From assembly GCA_965227515.1 (NCBI GenBank), contig CBDDFZ010000001.1:352001-416000 (forward strand): 64,000 bases of DNA, written 5' to 3'. The notes beneath the pieces were generated by a model. It worked only from the letters and a program-made list of their open reading frames with translations. It had not been told where the DNA came from and made no database searches. This DNA comes from Alphaproteobacteria bacterium (GTDB lineage: Bacteria; Pseudomonadota; Alphaproteobacteria; CALKHQ01). This document shows, in pieces, positions 8,256 to 42,724 of this stretch. The stretch's first letter is position 1; each line of letters begins with the position of its first letter. The position numbers and the translations under genes were made by a program.

Positions 8256-8344
8256 TGTAGCCCGGATGGAGCGCAGCGCAATCCGGGAAGCGGCGGGGCA
8301 CCAAGGACTCACCCCGGATTTCACTTCGTTCCATCCGGGCTACG
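8256..8344. repeat. GTAG-tagged REP pair (inverted)
   Basis: GTAGCCCGGATGGAGCG...ATCCGGG / CCCGGATT...CCATCCGGGCTAC. Confidence 0.8.
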
Positions 8345-37798: not shown

Positions 37799-40117
37799 TC
37801 AGGCGTGCGCGGCGGGGATGACGAAGCGGGCCAGCACCCGCTTGTCGCCGGCCTTCTCGAAGCTGACCGCCAGCTTGTCGCCCTCCACGGCGGTCACCAG
37901 GCCATAGCCGAACTTCTGGTGGAACACGCGCGCGCCCTCGGCAAAACCGGTGTCCGGCTCGGCGTCTTCGATCACTGTCGCCACGCCCTCGATCTCCGCC
38001 GGCGCAGCGCGCCGCGCCATGCCCGGGCGCTGGCGCATGTGGTCGTAACGCTGACCGGGCGCAGAGGTACGGCCACCGCGCCGCCAGATCGGGCCCCAGT
38101 CGGTCGTCCGCACCCCACCGGCGTCGAACGCCGCGTTGGCCTCGCCGAAACCGGGCACAGCGCCGACCGTCAGGCCGTCGGTGCCGATCTGGCGGGTGTG
38201 GTCGTCCGGCAGCTCGTCGATGAAGCGCGACGGCATCGCGCTCTGCCACAGATTGTTGATCCGCCTGCTGCCGGCATAGGACACGTACGCACGTACACGC
38301 GCACGGGTGAGGCCGACGTACGCCAGCCGGCGCTCTTCCTCCAGCGACTTCAGCCCGCCCTCGTCCAGCGCGCGCTGGTGCGGGAACAATCCTTCCTCCC
38401 AGCCCGGCAGGAACACCGTGTCGAACTCCAGCCCCTTGGCCGAGTGCAAGGTCATCAGGCTGACCATGTCGCCGCCGCTGGCCTCGCCCTGCTCCGCGAC
38501 CAGGCTGACATGCTCCAGGAAGCCCGCCAGCGTGTCGAACTCCTGCATCGCGACGATCAGTTCCTTCAGGTTGTCGAGCCGGCCCGGCGCGTCGGGCGCC
38601 CGGTCGGCCTGCCACATGGCGGTGTAGCCGGATTCGTCCAGCACCAGGGCAGCCAGTTCGTCATGGGCCATGGTCTCGGCCATGGCGCGCCAGCGGTCGA
38701 AGTCCTGCACCACGCCGGCGAACGCCTTGCGCGCCCGCGACGGCAGCTCGTCGGTCTCGACCAGGGCGCGGATGGTGGCCAGCAACGGCTGTTGCAGCTC
38801 GCGCGCGGTCTGGTGCATCTGCGCCAGGCTGGTCTTGCCGATGCCGCGCTTGGGCGTGTTGATGATGCGCTCCAGGGCCAGGTCGTCGTCGGGCTGGGCA
38901 ATCACCCGCAGGTAGGCGAGCGCATCGCGGATCTCCAGCCGCTCATAGAAGCGCGGCCCGCCGATCACGCGATAGGGCAGGCCCAGCGTCAGGAACCGTT
39001 CCTCGAACTCGCGGGTCTGGAAGCTGGCGCGGACCAGGATCGCGATCTCGTTCAGCGCATGGCCGTCGCGCTGCAGCCGCTCGATTTCCTCGCCGATGGT
39101 GCGCGCCTCGTCCGGCCCGTCCCAGGTGCCGCGCACGGTCACCTGCTCGCCGGTGTCCTGCTCGGTCCACAGGGTCTTGCCAAGCCGCCCCTCGTTGTTG
39201 GCGATCACGCCGGCCGCCGCCCCCAGAATGTGGCCGCCGGAACGGTAGTTCTGCTCCAGCCGGATCACCGTGGCGCCGGGGAAATCCTGCTCGAACTTCA
39301 GGATGTTGCCGACCTCGGCGCCGCGCCAGCCATAGATCGACTGGTCGTCGTCGCCGACGCAGCAGATGTTCTTGTGGCCCTGGGCCAGCATGCGCAGCCA
39401 CAGATACTGGCTGACGTTGGTGTCCTGATATTCGTCGACCAGCAGATAGCGGAACCGCTGCTGGTACTCGGCCGCCACGTCGGGGAAATTCTGGAACAGG
39501 GTCAGATTGTGCAGCAGCAGGTCGCCGAAGTCACAGGCGTTCAGGGTCTTCAACCGCTCCTGATAGGCGGCGTAGAGAGCGGTGATCTTGCCCTCGGCGA
39601 TATCGCCAGCCTCGGCCGCGCCGATCCGGTCCGGGGTCAGGCCGCGATCCTTCCAGCGCTGGATCACGCCGTTGATCAGCCGCGCCGGCCAGCGCTTGTC
39701 GTCGATATTCGCGGCCTGGATCAGTTGCTTCAGCAGCCGATGCTGGTCGTCCATATCCAGGATGGTGAAGGTCGGCGTGAGCCCGATCAGGTCGGCGTGG
39801 CGGCGCAGGATGCGCGCGCCCAGCGCGTGGAAGGTGCCGAGCCACCACCCCTCGACCGAGCGGCCGAGCATCGCGCCGACCCGGTCCTTCATCTCCCGCG
39901 CCGCCTTGTTGGTGAAGGTGACGGCCAGGATCTCACCCGGCCGCGCACTGCCGGTGGCCAGGATGTGGACCAGCCGGGTGGTCAGCACCCGGGTCTTGCC
40001 GGTGCCGGCCCCGGCCAGCACCAGCACCGGGCCGTCGACGGCGGCCACAGCGGAGCGCTGCATCTCGTTCAGGCCGGCGAAATAGGGCGGCTGCGGGGCT
40101 GTGAGTTCGGCTGACAT
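37799..40117 (-). CDS. uvrD: UvrD/PcrA DNA helicase
   Basis: AGAGTGKT, TFTNKAA, VDEYQD, GDDDQSIY, LEQNYRS, HSAKGLEF and EERRLAYV; C-terminal Tudor-like domain. Confidence 0.95.
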   Translation of the reverse strand: MSAELTAPQPPYFAGLNEMQRSAVAAVDGPVLVLAGAGTGKTRVLTTRLVHILATGSARPGEILAVTFTNKAAREMKDRVGAMLGRSVEGWWLGTFHALGARILRRHADLIGLTPTFTILDMDDQHRLLKQLIQAANIDDKRWPARLINGVIQRWKDRGLTPDRIGAAEAGDIAEGKITALYAAYQERLKTLNACDFGDLLLHNLTLFQNFPDVAAEYQQRFRYLLVDEYQDTNVSQYLWLRMLAQGHKNICCVGDDDQSIYGWRGAEVGNILKFEQDFPGATVIRLEQNYRSGGHILGAAAGVIANNEGRLGKTLWTEQDTGEQVTVRGTWDGPDEARTIGEEIERLQRDGHALNEIAILVRASFQTREFEERFLTLGLPYRVIGGPRFYERLEIRDALAYLRVIAQPDDDLALERIINTPKRGIGKTSLAQMHQTARELQQPLLATIRALVETDELPSRARKAFAGVVQDFDRWRAMAETMAHDELAALVLDESGYTAMWQADRAPDAPGRLDNLKELIVAMQEFDTLAGFLEHVSLVAEQGEASGGDMVSLMTLHSAKGLEFDTVFLPGWEEGLFPHQRALDEGGLKSLEEERRLAYVGLTRARVRAYVSYAGSRRINNLWQSAMPSRFIDELPDDHTRQIGTDGLTVGAVPGFGEANAAFDAGGVRTTDWGPIWRRGGRTSAPGQRYDHMRQRPGMARRAAPAEIEGVATVIEDAEPDTGFAEGARVFHQKFGYGLVTAVEGDKLAVSFEKAGDKRVLARFVIPAAHA

Positions 40118-40341
40118 CGGCTCCTCGGGAGTCTTGGAACAAACATGCGACTCCGCATCGGTGAGGGCAACACTACCGTGTTTCACCGCCGCACCACACC
40201 ACCTTGTCAGCCTTGACCGAGGCACAAGTAGATGGGCTAACGGCCCTTGTTTGGTGGCGTGCATGAGTGGTCGTCCCTCAAGATGTCGGTGTCATACACG
40301 GAGTCGGGTTTGCCGCTCCAAGACATCGAGGAGAGACGACC

Positions 40342-41385
40342 ATGAACTACTATGCCGGGATTGACGTTTCTTTGGAATGGTCATCGGTGTGCGTTGTTGA
40401 CGGCGCGGGCGGGATTGTCTGCGAGGCTCGTATTGCGAGCACGCCGGCGGGTTTGTTGTTGTGGTTTGGGTCTTTGGGGATTTCGGTTGAGCGGATTGGT
40501 CTTGAGGCGGGGCCGTTGTCGCAATGGCTTGTGCGGGGATGTAGCGAGGGCGGTCTTTCGGTTGAGTTGCTGGAGACGCGTCATGTTGCGCGAGCGCTTT
40601 CGACGATGCCGGTGAAGTCGGACCGCTCGGACGCACGCGGGATTGCTCAGCTGATGCGTGTGGGCTGGTTTCGTCCGGTTCACTGCAAGTCTTTGGCGGC
40701 CCAGGAGATGCGGGCCCTTTTGAAGGGTCGCGACCAGCTCCGCGCGAAGCTGCACGATCTTGAGATGCACCTTCGTGGTCAGCTGCGGAACTTCGGGCTG
40801 AAGGTAGGGCACACCACCAGGCGCAGCTTTTCGACACGTATTTCGGAGCTTGTGGCGGGGCATCCGGTACTGGAGGCGGTGGCGGGGGCGCTGCTGTCGG
40901 CACGCGATGGCCTGTTGCTATCGTTCACGGCGCTGGACCGGCAGGTCCGGGCGGCGGCGCAGGCCGACGATCGCGCTCGCCTGCTGATGACGGTGCCGGG
41001 CGTGGGGAGCATTGTCGGACTGACCTACTTGTCGGGAGTGGACGACCCCGGGCGGTTTGCCTCGTCGCGCCTGGTGGGTGCGCACTTCGGCCTGACGCCG
41101 ACCAAGCGCCAGTCGGGCGAGAGCGAGGTGATGGGGCGGATATCGAAGGTAGGGGACGCCGATGTGCGCTCGGCCCTCTATGAGGCGGCACACGTGGTTC
41201 TGACCCGGCCGATCGAGGGCGGCTGGCTGAAGAGCTGGGCGATGAAGCTGGCCAGGCGTGCGGGCATGAGGAAGGCGAAGGTCGCGCTGGCGCGCCGGCT
41301 CGCCGTGATCATGCACCGGATGTGGGTTGACGGCACACCGTTCAACCATGCCGGACCGGTGCGCCCGGCGATGGCGACAGCATGA
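40342..41385 (+). CDS. IS110-family DEDD recombinase/transposase
   Basis: GIDVS, LEAG and KSDRSDA RuvC-like DEDD motifs; VPGVG; GLTP..QSG catalytic Ser domain. Confidence 0.95.
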   Translation: MNYYAGIDVSLEWSSVCVVDGAGGIVCEARIASTPAGLLLWFGSLGISVERIGLEAGPLSQWLVRGCSEGGLSVELLETRHVARALSTMPVKSDRSDARGIAQLMRVGWFRPVHCKSLAAQEMRALLKGRDQLRAKLHDLEMHLRGQLRNFGLKVGHTTRRSFSTRISELVAGHPVLEAVAGALLSARDGLLLSFTALDRQVRAAAQADDRARLLMTVPGVGSIVGLTYLSGVDDPGRFASSRLVGAHFGLTPTKRQSGESEVMGRISKVGDADVRSALYEAAHVVLTRPIEGGWLKSWAMKLARRAGMRKAKVALARRLAVIMHRMWVDGTPFNHAGPVRPAMATA

Positions 41386-41399
41386 TGGCCGCGGCATAA

Positions 41400-41625
41400 G
41401 GAGAACCGACACACGAGCTTCGACGGGCACCGACACCGGCCCGTCGAGCGCCGTCCCGCGCCGGGACGATGGATCAGGTCAGGCCGCCATCCGGGATGTC
41501 GCCTCGCATGAGAGCACGCTTCCGTAGATTGGACCGACCGATCCTCGCATATCCATCTTGGCGGCGGCCCTGCGCCGACCCCGTACAGAAGCATGACCCA
41601 GGCGCCGGGACGACGAAAAAGGGAT
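41400..41625 (+). ncRNA. Putative bridge/seekRNA of the IS1111-type element (boundaries approximate)
   Basis: About 260-nt structured 3' non-coding end containing short matches to the donor junction (TACAGAAG, CCATCTT) and to the REP target (CCGTAG, CCATCCGGG). Confidence 0.55.
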
Positions 41626-41650
41626 TGACCAACAATGGCCCGTTACAGAA

Positions 41651-41704
41651 GCCTGGGTGAAACGAAGTGGAACCCGGGTTTCGCTACGCTCCACCCGGGC
41701 TACG
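41651..41704. repeat. GTAG REP dimer; its GTAG tag is displaced to 40228-40231 by the IS110 element
   Basis: GCCTGGGTGAAACGAAGTGGAACCCGGG...CCACCCGGGCTAC, similar to the REP at 22841. Confidence 0.8.
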
Positions 41705-41708
41705 TCAA

Positions 41709-42623
41709 TCAGCCCTGCAGCAGCCCGTTCGCCTTCAGGAACGCCGCGAGCTTGGCGTGCTGGGCGTCGGTCAGCGGCCAGCAGGCCGGCGGGCGGGTGG
41801 ACCCGCAATCATTGCCGATCAGCTTCAGCGCCGCCTTCACCCCTGGGACGTTGGCGCCGCCCATCTCCTCGGCGCGGATTTCCTCGAACGCCTTCATGCC
41901 GGCGATCAGCGCGCGCGCTTCGGCGTAGTCGCCCGCCTCCAGCGCGGTGTTGATGGCGACGCTGCGCGCCGGCCACACATTGATCAGCCCGGAGGTGAAG
42001 CCGCGCGCGCCGACGGCATAGAACGCCGGCGCCCAGACCTCGGCCAACCCACCGACCCAGACGATATCGGGGTCCCAGGCGGCGATCGCCTCGGCCAGCT
42101 TCAACGGGTTGGGGGTTGCCCACTTGACCCCGATCACGCCGTCGACCGCGCAAAGGTCGGCGATGGCGCGGGTGCCGATGGCGTCGTTGCGCAGGTAGAG
42201 CATGATCGGCAGGCCGCCGCCGGCATCCGCCACCCGCCGGGTGTAGTCGACCAGCCCGCGCGGCGACACGAACGGGTCCGGCGGCTGGTGGATCATCAGC
42301 GCGTCGGCACCGGCCTCGACCGAGGTGCGCGCGAGCCGGCAGGCATCGCCGATGCTGCGACCGACACCGGCGATCAGCGGTGCCCGGCCGGCCAGATGGG
42401 CCGCTGTCGCGCGCACCATCGCCTCCGCCTCGTCGGTGGTCAGGGAGTAGAACTCGCCGGTGTTGCCGTTGATCACCGGCAGGTGCACGCCGGCCGCCAA
42501 TGCGCGGTCCAGCACCGGTTCCTGCAAGGTCGGCGCGATCAGCCCGTCGCCATCGAATGGCGTCACCAGAATGCCGGACACACCGGTCAAAGCCGCGCGC
42601 AGGCGCGCCGTGTCTTCGCCCAC
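41709..42623 (-). CDS. Dihydrodipicolinate synthase (DHDPS/NAL) family protein
   Basis: VTPF, NGNTGEFYSLT, MLY and GVKW; GTG start inferred. Confidence 0.88.
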   Translation of the reverse strand: MGEDTARLRAALTGVSGILVTPFDGDGLIAPTLQEPVLDRALAAGVHLPVINGNTGEFYSLTTDEAEAMVRATAAHLAGRAPLIAGVGRSIGDACRLARTSVEAGADALMIHQPPDPFVSPRGLVDYTRRVADAGGGLPIMLYLRNDAIGTRAIADLCAVDGVIGVKWATPNPLKLAEAIAAWDPDIVWVGGLAEVWAPAFYAVGARGFTSGLINVWPARSVAINTALEAGDYAEARALIAGMKAFEEIRAEEMGGANVPGVKAALKLIGNDCGSTRPPACWPLTDAQHAKLAAFLKANGLLQG

Positions 42624-42724
42624 CGAATTCCTCCCAGGTTTCTTGTTTGGCCGCGATTGGCCTTGCCGCCGACCCGGCCGCAGCGCCATAATCGGGCATC
42701 CGGAAAACAGGATCAATTGGGCGA

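What the first reader, a model, noticed from the sequence alone, without database searches (positions are those of the whole stretch)
40222..41704. IS110/IS1111 element in the GTAG tag of a REP, with readable candidate guide segments in its 3' non-coding end
Seen: the junctions are CAAGT[AG]ATGGGC and TTACAGA[AG]CCTGGG. This gives target GT-AG-CCTGGGTG (a GTAG REP) and circle junction TACAGA-AG-ATGG. The 3' non-coding region holds four matches in order: CCATCCGGG (41487-41495, reverse complement of REP arm CCCGGATGG as at 8261; pairs with the actual site via G-T/U-G wobbles), CCGTAG (41522-41527, target left), CCATCTT (41553-41559, reverse complement of donor AAGATGG) and TACAGAAG (41584-41591, donor left). 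Established: IS110/IS1111 recombinases use bridge/seekRNAs with target and donor guides, encoded downstream of the ORF in IS1111 types. Inference: a natural RNA-guided recombinase programmed against this genome's GTAG REP family. The matches are short, and CAGGC at 41480 is an alternative right-target guide.
Basis: partly seen in the sequence, partly recalled or inferred. Interest (0 to 1): 0.7.

Follow-up and report, generated by a model that had tools for sequence, protein, structure and literature searches.

The report
REP-targeting IS1111 element with bridge RNA
This is a small jumping gene of the IS110/IS1111 family whose own non-coding tail carries short guide sequences that match a repeated palindrome (REP) of the host genome, which explains why all 21 copies sit at exactly the same spot in that repeat; the kind of system is already known, this is a new example of it.

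Summary
Window 40232-41651 is a 1420-bp IS1111-group element. It has a 347-aa DEDD/Ser transposase, imperfect subterminal inverted repeats and a 266-bp 3' non-coding region.

The genome holds 20 full copies and 1 internally deleted copy. All 21 lie between GTAG and CCYGGRTG of a REP, and 114 such sites are empty.

They sit in the loops of a conserved three-helix fold: 89% of cells pair, against 41-52% in slid controls.

Two results show that they are guides.
- **Within this genome:** 13 copies carry CCATCCGGG. Nine of these sit at the perfect complement CCCGGATG. Seven copies carry CCATCCAGG, and all 7 sit at CCT sites.
- **In relatives:** in transposase homologs of 43-68% identity, the same RNA position is the reverse complement of each element's own right flank. 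This holds in 9 of 13 representatives in the first set and in 3 of 4 exactly in a later test set.

No RNA data exist, so the RNA itself is inferred from family experiments (ISPa11, IS621). Verdict: a new member of a known kind.

The parts
40228..40231 (+). Left target GT plus core dinucleotide AG (left junction)
   Evidence: GTAG precedes the element in 21 of 21 copies. Empty sites read GTAGCCYGGRTG with AG present once.
40232..41651 (+). The insertion sequence (1420 bp); the AG at 41650-41651 is the second copy of the core
   Evidence: blastn finds 20 full-length copies at 89.7-100% identity plus 1 deleted copy, all with the same ends.
40232..40237 (+). Left terminal extension ATGGGC (right donor, RD)
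   Evidence: Complement of the RDG segment. The extension varies among homologs (ATGGGG, ATGCCG, ATTGGC) and the RDG varies with it.
40238..40254 (+). Left subterminal inverted repeat TAACGGCCCTTGTTTGG
   Evidence: Read. The TAACGG/TAATCGG repeat is found at both ends in 10 homologs. It matches the right repeat in about 15 of 18 aligned columns, by hand.
40342..41385 (+). Transposase gene, 347 aa plus stop
   Evidence: Pfam PF01548 (9.5e-13) and PF02371 (2.3e-20). NCBIfam NF033542 'IS110 family RNA-guided transposase', 237 bits against a cutoff of 140. PDB ISCro4 1e-11 and IS621 7e-11. The frame is open in 20 of 20 full copies.
41453..41612 (+). Predicted bridge/seekRNA (about 160 nt; true ends unknown)
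   Evidence: Consensus fold of 18 non-coding regions: 23 pairs, 16 with compensatory changes, 89.4% of cells paired against 41-52% when slid, 0 of 500 shuffles as high. The RNA itself has not been observed.
41454..41465 (+). Helix 1, 5' arm (closing stem); pairs with 41598-41609
   Evidence: 8 pairs, 6 with changes on both sides, 87.5% paired.
41471..41486 (+). Helix 2, 5' arm (stem below the target loop); pairs with 41530-41544.
   Evidence: 8 pairs, 5 compensatory, 89.6% paired. The sequence GGTCAGRCCGC is conserved whatever the target.
41487..41495 (+). Right target guide (RTG) CCATCCGGG, complementary to the top strand of CCCGGATGG
   Evidence: G41493 is A in 7 copies, and all 7 sit at CCT sites. 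The 13 G copies sit at CCC sites in 11 cases. The homologous position is the reverse complement of the right flank in homologs.
41498..41517 (+). Inner hairpin between RTG and LTG
   Evidence: A hairpin is predicted at this place in 18 of 18 aligned non-coding regions, at -0.3 to -15.9 kcal/mol. These are single-sequence folds, so the support is weak.
41522..41527 (+). Left target guide (LTG) CCGTAG, identical to the top strand of the left target plus core
   Evidence: Core-anchored match to the element's own left flank averages 4.5 nt in 13 elements, against 2.4 in 148 non-cognate pairs. L038 reaches 7 nt and L040 8 nt.
41530..41544 (+). Helix 2, 3' arm
41553..41559 (+). Right donor guide (RDG) CCATCTT, complementary to A-AG-ATGG of the inferred circle junction
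   Evidence: The same position reads ACCCCATC, CCCAT or GGCAT where the left end is ATGGGG or ATGCCG.
41561..41582 (+). Helix 3 hairpin between RDG and LDG
   Evidence: 7 pairs, 5 compensatory, 91.3% paired.
41584..41591 (+). Left donor guide (LDG) TACAGAAG, identical to the right end of the element plus core
   Evidence: At least 7 nt identical to the element's own right end in 15 of 15 elements, in three variants: ACAGAAG, AGAGAAG, AGCGAAG.
41598..41609 (+). Helix 1, 3' arm. Contains ACCCAGGC, which I first took for a possible guide.
   Evidence: CCYGGCG is conserved in homologs with other targets and pairs with the 5' arm.
41625..41630 (+). TTGACC, candidate -35 box of a promoter completed across the circle junction
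   Evidence: TTGAC (TTGCG in L043) is present near the right end of the 10 homologs printed. 17 nt further on, the hexamer GAAG|AT would form across the junction. This is an inference made by hand. No sigma-70 site was found in the linear form.
41629..41645 (+). Right subterminal inverted repeat CCAACAATGGCCCGTTA
41652..41678 (+). REP hairpin (right target CCTGGGTG...ACCCGGG)
   Evidence: The family was counted.
41673..41703 (-). Second REP in inverted orientation: an unoccupied GTAGCCCGGGTG site
   Evidence: Matches to window 41650-41704 occur on both strands elsewhere in the genome.

Best explanation
Window 40232-41651 is an active IS1111-group insertion sequence of the IS110 family. Its transposase is a DEDD/serine recombinase.

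Its 3' non-coding region encodes a bridge (seek) RNA of about 160 nt. A closing stem (helix 1) holds two modules.
- **Target loop**, on helix 2: the RTG CCATCCGGG pairs with the top strand of the REP arm CCCGGATGG. After an inner hairpin, the LTG CCGTAG pairs with the bottom strand of the left target plus the core AG.
- **Donor module**: the RDG CCATCTT and the LDG TACAGAAG flank helix 3. They read the joined ends of the excised circle.

Recombination at the shared AG core places the element between GTAG and CCYGGRTG.

**Shown here:** family membership, the ends, the site specificity (21 of 21), the conserved fold, and the covariation of all four segments with their DNA partners.

**Inferred from published work on ISPa11, ISEc11 and IS621:** that the segments act as RNA, that a circle is the donor, and that a promoter forms across the junction.
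For: **Family.** Pfam PF01548 and PF02371. NCBIfam NF033542, 237 bits. IS621 and ISCro4 are the only PDB matches. The protein carries GLTPTKRQSG, which fits the GL-P----S(t)G motif described for IS1111 transposases.

**Site.** 21 of 21 copies lie at GTAG|CCYGGRTG. 114 empty sites exist.

**Covariation within the genome.**
- The 13 copies with RTG CCATCCGGG sit at CCCGGATG (9), CCCGGGTG (2) and CCTGGGTG (2).
- The 7 copies with CCATCCAGG sit at CCTGGGTG (6) and CCTGGATG (1), and none at a CCC site.
- Fisher p = 4.6e-4.
- Nine of 13 at a site class that makes up 27 of 135 sites: binomial 1.7e-4.

**Covariation across relatives.**
- With Watson-Crick pairs only, the RTG region pairs with the element's own right flank over 7-11 nt in 9 of 13 representatives. 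The maximum in 148 non-cognate pairs is 6.
- LDG: 15 of 15 elements.
- LTG: 4.5 against 2.4 nt.

**Test set fetched afterwards from plasmids.** 3 of 4 elements with both ends match exactly over 8-10 nt; the fourth matches 7 of 8.

**Fold.** 16 of 23 pairs are compensatory, 89.4% of cells pair against 41-52% when slid, and 0 of 500 shuffles reach this.

**Published rules.** In IS1111 elements the top-strand match lies 5' of the bottom-strand match. The LTG pairs with the bottom strand on the left and the RTG with the top strand on the right. In IS1111 elements the bridge RNA lies in the right end and the donor nucleotides lie in a multiloop.
Against: No RNA has been seen: no RNA run is listed. 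Rfam gives no match. Single-sequence folds are not better than shuffles (z = -1.58 and -1.26).

The window's own copy sits at CCTGGGTGA. There the RTG makes only 3 contiguous Watson-Crick pairs, or 8 if G-U/G-T pairs are allowed. With wobble allowed, 8 of 148 non-cognate pairs reach 9.

Two homologs do not fit on the right side: L033 (5 nt) and L040 (4 nt).

Beyond GTAG the LTG shows no selectivity in this genome: C at -1 occurs in 16 of 21 occupied and 81 of 114 empty sites, p = 0.79.

The copies and homologs are related to one another, so the p-values overstate independence. Four of the 18 aligned non-coding regions (L038, L039, L041, L046) are near-identical.

The circle junction was not observed.
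Confidence: 0.88

Rival explanations
1. RNA guidance is necessary but not sufficient. The REP stem-loop next to the insertion point acts as a second, structural specificity determinant read by the recombinase, as reported for ISPpu10. This refines the best explanation rather than replacing it.
For: All 21 insertions lie at the foot of a REP hairpin. The sister element L034/L035 also sits at a GTAG-tagged palindrome, CCCGCATGAGCG...ATATGCGGG. The ISPpu10 preprint reports such a 'dual-match' logic (abstract only).
Against: Relatives with the same RNA architecture sit next to flanks that I did not recognise as palindromes, for example GGCGGATTAGCATT in L032 and CACTACTTTGGC in L049. I did not fold those flanks. 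In this genome nearly every GTAGCCYGGRTG is a REP, so sequence and structure cannot be separated.
Confidence: 0.3
2. The transposase recognises the REP by protein-DNA contacts alone, and the matching segments in the non-coding region are incidental.
For: The matches are short (6-9 nt). The window's own site needs two wobbles. No RNA has been observed.
Against: A one-base guide difference tracks the one-base REP difference within one genome. In relatives with unrelated targets the same position is complementary to each element's own flank. All four segments sit in loops of a covarying fold.
Confidence: 0.03
3. The segments act as DNA. A single-stranded part of the element's end pairs with the target, in the manner of IS200/IS605 guide sequences, and no RNA is involved.
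For: Covariation of sequence alone cannot distinguish an RNA guide from a DNA guide.
Against: The compensatory helices are on the strand of the transposase gene. G-U-type pairs are kept in one orientation, for example the U-G pair at columns 34/105 in 12 of 18 rows. For family members the RNA co-purifies with the transposase and is required (abstract and section 9 of PMC11187229). NCBIfam labels the family as RNA-guided.
Confidence: 0.04

Closest known systems
ISPa11 (IS1111 family, Pseudomonas aeruginosa)
   Same: An IS1111-type element that targets REP sequences. Its seekRNA is encoded downstream of tnp and co-purifies with the transposase, and the top-strand match lies 5' of the bottom-strand match (PMC11187229: introduction, sections 8-9).
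   Different: Different host class and a different REP family. I did not compare the sequences, because no ISPa11 sequence was held. Here the RNA is only predicted.
IS621 bridge RNA system (IS110 group)
   Same: A DEDD plus Ser recombinase; PDB 8wt6 matches at 7e-11. Two guide pairs, with the LTG/LDG reading the bottom strand on the left and the RTG/RDG reading the top strand on the right of a shared core dinucleotide.
   Different: In IS621 the RNA lies in the left end, upstream of the gene, and the guide order is reversed. Here the core is AG, not CT. The donor guides flank a hairpin in a multiloop instead of lining an internal loop, as Durrant et al. note for many IS1111 elements. Long subterminal repeats are present here.
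ISPpu10 / ISPpu9 (Pseudomonas putida, REP-inserting IS110-family elements)
   Same: Insertion into REP or intergenic stem-loop sequences, and multi-copy expansion in one genome (abstracts: search listing, outline).
   Different: I saw only the abstracts. Durrant et al. list ISPpu10 among the six elements they inspected by hand. No sequence comparison was made here.
Unnamed 'IS110 family transposase' elements of Methylocystis, Mesorhizobium, Sinorhizobium/Ensifer and Rhizobium plasmids
   Same: The nearest relatives found, at 62-68% amino-acid identity. They share the non-coding architecture, the sTIR TAACGGG, the LDG ACAGAAG and the core AG.
   Different: Different RTG and LTG, and different, mostly non-REP targets. 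None reaches 70% identity, the level used in PMC11187229 to group transposases.

Membership tests
IS110 family (DEDD/Ser RNA-guided recombinases) | N-terminal RuvC-like DEDD domain and C-terminal Tnp domain | tested here: met
   PF01548 covers residues 5-150 and PF02371 residues 212-287. NF033542 aligns over profile positions 1-343 of 343 at 237 bits, cutoff 140.
IS110 family (DEDD/Ser RNA-guided recombinases) | Catalytic serine in a G--P----SG loop | tested here: met
   GLTPTKRQSG in the translation aligns with GLTPRRYESG of ISCro4. The motif is as described in PMC11187229, section 6. The DEDD residues were read by eye only (GIDVS, LEAG, SDRSDAR).
IS110 family (DEDD/Ser RNA-guided recombinases) | Site-specific insertion at a core dinucleotide shared by target and donor, without a longer target duplication | tested here: met
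   AG is present at both junctions in 21 of 21 copies and once in each of 114 empty sites.
IS1111 group | Subterminal inverted repeats of 7-17 bp with short terminal extensions | tested here: met
   The repeats at 40238-40254 and 41629-41645 are imperfect. The extensions are ATGGGC and CAGAAG. The length range is quoted from PMC11208160.
IS1111 group | The long non-coding region lies downstream of tnp | tested here: met
   266 bp downstream (41386-41651) against 110 bp upstream (40232-40341). The rule comes from PMC11187229.
IS1111 group | Transposase of 330-350 aa | tested here: met
   347 aa. The range comes from PMC11187229, section 6. I built no phylogenetic tree.
Bridge/seekRNA-guided targeting | Guide segments that match both strands of the target, with the top-strand match 5' of the bottom-strand match in IS1111 types | tested here: met
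   The RTG at 41487-41495 precedes the LTG at 41522-41527. Covariation is shown.
Bridge/seekRNA-guided targeting | A second guide pair that matches the joined donor ends | tested here: met
   The RDG and LDG covary with the left and right ends; the LDG does so in 15 of 15 elements.
Bridge/seekRNA-guided targeting | The RNA is made and binds the transposase | not testable with these tools
   No RNA run is listed. Only DNA contigs were laid.
Bridge/seekRNA-guided targeting | A circular intermediate with joined ends | not testable with these tools
   There is no 41651-to-40232 joint in the contigs of four runs, but contigs drop rare forms.
Rfam RNA families | Match to a curated covariance model | tested here: not met
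   0 matches at E <= 1 over 39800-42100. I do not know whether Rfam 15 holds an IS1111 bridge RNA model.

The most novel reading that the evidence does not exclude
Within one genome, a single-nucleotide change in the right target guide (G41493 to A) has split the element into two lineages that use different REP sub-variants. The G lineage favours CCCGGATG: it occupies 9 of 27 such sites, 2 of 62 CCCGGGTG sites and 2 of 42 CCTGGGTG sites. The A lineage uses only CCT sites (7 of 7). This would be natural guide reprogramming caught in progress. It would also serve as an in vivo map of which rG-dT and rU-dG wobbles an IS1111 recombinase tolerates, and of which mismatch it does not tolerate (rA-dC, 0 of 89 CCC sites). 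A sister element in another genome (L034/L035) has moved to a different GTAG-tagged REP, again by a one-base guide change (CCATGCGGG for CCCGCATG).
Probability: 0.6. Interest if true: 0.45.

Novelty: new member of a known kind. Interest (0 to 1): 0.35.

Why it matters
It adds a cleanly delimited, apparently active IS1111-type bridge-RNA element from a GC-rich bacterium: 20 copies have open transposase frames and three are 100% identical. All four guides are assigned, and a three-helix fold is supported by covariation.

The two guide variants and four REP variants in one genome give a small natural data set on mismatch and wobble tolerance at two guide positions. Engineering studies usually have to generate such data by mutagenesis.

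For annotation, it explains why this repeat family is interrupted 21 times at one phosphodiester bond. It does not change what is known about how the family works.

Tried and rejected
**Alternative guides.**
- ACCCAGGC at 41596-41603 is the reverse complement of GCCTGGGT, and I first took it for a better right-target guide. I rejected it. CCYGGCG is conserved in homologs with unrelated targets and forms the 3' arm of helix 1.
- I considered that ATTGG after the LTG might be a 'handshake' guide for the donor. I dropped this because those bases pair within helix 2.

**Searches and folds that gave nothing.**
- Rfam: no match.
- Single-sequence folds of 41386-41651 and 41440-41620 are not better than shuffles.
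- The sigma-70 scan of the linear element found 0 sites.
- No solo copies of the RNA region lie outside the 21 elements (blastn).
- A literature search for the REP head string returned only unrelated primer hits.

**RNA evidence.** No RNA holder is listed.

**Reads laid.** Only Logan contigs of four coded DNA runs were available.
- No joint of the circle type appeared.
- One contig in X3 joins 41703 to 40224. I read this as a REP followed by another copy of the element, not as a circle.
- No contig skipped the element to show an empty site.

**Relatives.**
- 0 of 3 same-family genomes had a match at E <= 1e-40.
- Of the 37 same-class genomes searched, 3 had a match, at 49, 36 and 34% identity.
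- Their loci L061-L063 were fetched but not analysed.

**Rows dropped before counts.**
- L047 and L054: right ends not found.
- L031, L037, L045, L050-L052 and L055-L059: truncated or partial.
- L035 and L048 duplicate L034 and L038 and were not counted as separate representatives.
- L085 has no right end.
- L044 was left out of the LTG control because its alignment there is poor.

**Tools and files not available.**
Supplementary Table 5 of PMC11208160 and the supplementary figures of PMC11187229 may list this element or closer relatives. I could not see them.
- ISfinder cannot be queried here, so whether the element already has a name is unknown.
Full report
**What is there.**

The sequence shows CAAGT-AG-ATGGGC at 40225-40237 and TTACAGA-AG-CCTGGG at 41643-41657. 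Between the two AG dinucleotides lies a 1420-bp element, 40232-41651. Its parts are:
- a 110-bp 5' region;
- one gene, 40342-41385, of 347 aa;
- a 266-bp 3' non-coding region.

The protein matches Pfam PF01548 and PF02371. It matches NCBIfam NF033542, 'IS110 family RNA-guided transposase', at 237 bits against a cutoff of 140. Its only solved relatives are the ISCro4 and IS621 transposases (1e-11 and 7e-11). It carries GLTPTKRQSG, which fits the GL-P----S(t)G motif that PMC11187229 describes for IS1111 transposases.

Imperfect subterminal inverted repeats lie at 40238-40254 and 41629-41645, each six bases from its end. The protein length, the repeats and the downstream position of the long non-coding region are the features that the two 2024 papers use to set IS1111 apart from IS110 proper.

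**Copies and target.**

The window's genome has 5.52 Mb in two contigs. It holds 20 full-length copies at 89.7-100% identity and one copy with an internal deletion.
- All 21 have GTAG immediately to the left and CCYGGRTG immediately to the right.
- The 21 outer left flanks all differ, so these are separate insertions.
- The transposase frame is open in all 20 full copies.
- Two other copies are 100% identical to the window's copy.

The uninterrupted sequence GTAGCCYGGRTG occurs 114 times: CCCGGGTG 60, CCTGGGTG 33, CCCGGATG 18, CCTGGATG 3. It is the head of a REP hairpin. AG is therefore present once in the target and at both junctions. That is the behaviour of a core dinucleotide shared by target and donor.

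The element and the REP pair sit between a DHDPS-family gene and a UvrD-type helicase gene, both on the minus strand.

**The four segments.**

They are at the stated coordinates and are present in all 20 full copies.

*Evidence within this genome.*

The first segment has two forms.

| Guide form | Copies | CCCGGATG | CCCGGGTG | CCTGGGTG | CCTGGATG |
|---|---|---|---|---|---|
| CCATCCGGG | 13 | 9 | 2 | 2 | 0 |
| CCATCCAGG | 7 | 0 | 0 | 6 | 1 |

The changed guide base, 41493, is the one that would pair with the third base of the REP head. The association is significant (Fisher p = 4.6e-4).

The G form strongly prefers its perfect complement: 9 of its 13 copies lie at CCCGGATG, a class that makes up 27 of the 135 sites (binomial 1.7e-4). 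Of the 27 CCCGGATG sites it occupies 9, against 2 of 62 CCCGGGTG sites.

The window's own copy is one of the two G-form copies at CCTGGGTG. On its own that pairing is not above chance.

*Evidence from relatives.*

A scan of one genome per species returned 29 loci at 43-69% identity in the best aligned segment, nearly all from Alphaproteobacteria. Where I could find the ends, the RNA position homologous to 41487-41495 is the reverse complement of that element's own right flank.
- Examples are AATCCGCC for GGCGGATT, CATGCGGG for CCCGCATG, CAAACCTTCT for AGAAGGTTTG and CAATGGGTC for GACCCATTG.
- Counting Watson-Crick pairs only, 9 of 13 representatives pair over 7-11 nt. The maximum in 148 non-cognate pairs is 6.
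- The four that fall below 7 are the two forms in this genome at their wobble sites, L033 and L040.
- With wobble allowed the measure loses its power: non-cognate pairs reach 9 in 8 of 148.

The other three segments behave in the same way.
- The second segment matches the element's own left flank, anchored on the core, over 4.5 nt on average, against 2.4 for non-cognate pairs. It reaches 7 nt in L038 and 8 nt in L040.
- The fourth matches the element's own right end over at least 7 nt in 15 of 15 elements, in three variants.
- The third follows the left end: ACCCCATC, CCCAT or GGCAT for ATGGGG or ATGCCG.

*Later test set.*

I then took five plasmid elements. Four had both ends. Three matched exactly over 8-10 nt and one matched 7 of 8.

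**Fold.**

An alignment of 18 non-coding regions gives three helices.

| Helix | Role | Window coordinates |
|---|---|---|
| 1 | Closing stem | 41454-41465 with 41598-41609 |
| 2 | Stem under the target loop | 41471-41486 with 41530-41544 |
| 3 | Hairpin between the two donor segments | 41561-41568 with 41574-41582 |

Of 23 pairs, 16 show changes on both sides. 89.4% of cells pair, against 41-52% when the partner is slid, and 0 of 500 shuffles reach the observed values. The structure was derived from this same alignment and the rows are related, so these controls are generous.

A hairpin is also predicted between the first and second segments in all 18 rows. Single-sequence folding of the window's region is not distinctive, and Rfam has no match.

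This layout has the target guides in an internal loop and the donor guides around a hairpin in a multiloop. Durrant et al. describe the same arrangement for many IS1111 elements.

**Mechanism and how much of it is shown.**

The strand logic is the published one.
- The segment identical to the top strand (left target plus core) corresponds to the IS621 LTG, which pairs with the bottom strand.
- The segment complementary to the top strand on the right corresponds to the RTG.
- Their order, RTG first, is the order reported for IS1111 seekRNAs.

I therefore read the region as a bridge/seekRNA that brings the REP head and the joined element ends together for recombination at AG.

Four things are not shown here:
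- the RNA itself (no RNA run);
- the circle (contigs only);
- the junction promoter, which I infer from a conserved TTGAC 17 nt upstream of a GAAG|AT hexamer that would form across the junction (by hand; no promoter in the linear form);
- any contribution of the REP hairpin as a structure, as reported for ISPpu10 (abstract).

**Comparison with what is known, and verdict.**

REP-targeting IS1111 and IS110 elements with guide RNAs are in print.
- ISPa11 targets P. aeruginosa REPs, and its seekRNA co-purifies with the transposase (PMC11187229: abstract, sections 6, 9 and 13, and passages).
- IS621 supplies the structural mechanism (PMC11208158, passages; PMC11208160, passages).
- ISPpu9 and ISPpu10 insert in P. 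putida REPs (abstracts only).

The nearest transposases found are 62-68% identical and unnamed.

It is, however, a new member of a known kind.

The part that goes slightly beyond routine is the pair of guide variants that divide the REP sub-variants of one genome between them, together with a sister element (L034/L035) that uses another GTAG-tagged REP through a one-base guide change.

Noticed in passing
own genome, G000:C1:998357-999181 (locus L021/L083): An internally deleted copy of 825 bp. Element positions 710-1298 are missing, which removes the C-terminal half of the transposase, the RTG and the LTG. The RDG, the LDG and both ends remain, and the right end reads TATAGAAG instead of TACAGAAG. 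If it can move at all, it would need both protein and RNA supplied in trans.
   Followed up: partly
L040 and L033 (genome-contig loci): Two homologs break the rule on one side. In L040 the LTG matches the left flank over 8 nt, but the RTG matches the right flank over only 4 nt. In L033 neither guide matches well. This could reflect half-matched insertion, guide drift after insertion, or ends that I set wrongly.
   Followed up: no
window 41625-41651 with 40232-40233: A TTGACC box lies 17 nt upstream of a GAAG|AT hexamer that exists only when the ends are joined. The same spacing is seen by eye in L032, L039 and L043. It is a likely junction promoter that would drive the transposase gene and the RNA downstream of it.
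   Followed up: partly
window 40234-40256: A terminator-like hairpin, GGGCTAACGGCCC followed by TTGTTTGG, overlaps the left subterminal repeat on the + strand. It could block read-through from outside into the transposase gene.
   Followed up: no
window 37802-40117 (-) and 41712-42716 (-): The element and the REP pair lie between a DHDPS-family gene and a UvrD/PcrA-type helicase gene on the opposite strand. The longest helicase ORF listed runs 49 codons into the element, and an annotator could wrongly take that extension as the gene start.
   Followed up: partly
L086 and L087 (Sinorhizobium terangae and Ensifer adhaerens plasmids): Two related elements sit next to the same sequence (G)ATCGCATAATGTA, but their junctions differ by one base, and their RTGs are TATGCGATC and TTATGCGATC.
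   Followed up: no
L034 and L035 (one metagenome-assembled genome): A sister element, 64% identical in protein, has two copies at GTAG|CCCGCATGAGCG...ATATGCGGG. That is a different GTAG-tagged REP family, and the RTG is CCATGCGGG.
   Followed up: partly
window 40100-41800 in coded runs X1-X4: In run X1 the contig depth over the element is about 259, against about 17 on the flanks. In X3 one contig joins 41703 back to 40224. Contig depths are not copy numbers, and I read the joint as a REP followed by another copy of the element.
   Followed up: no
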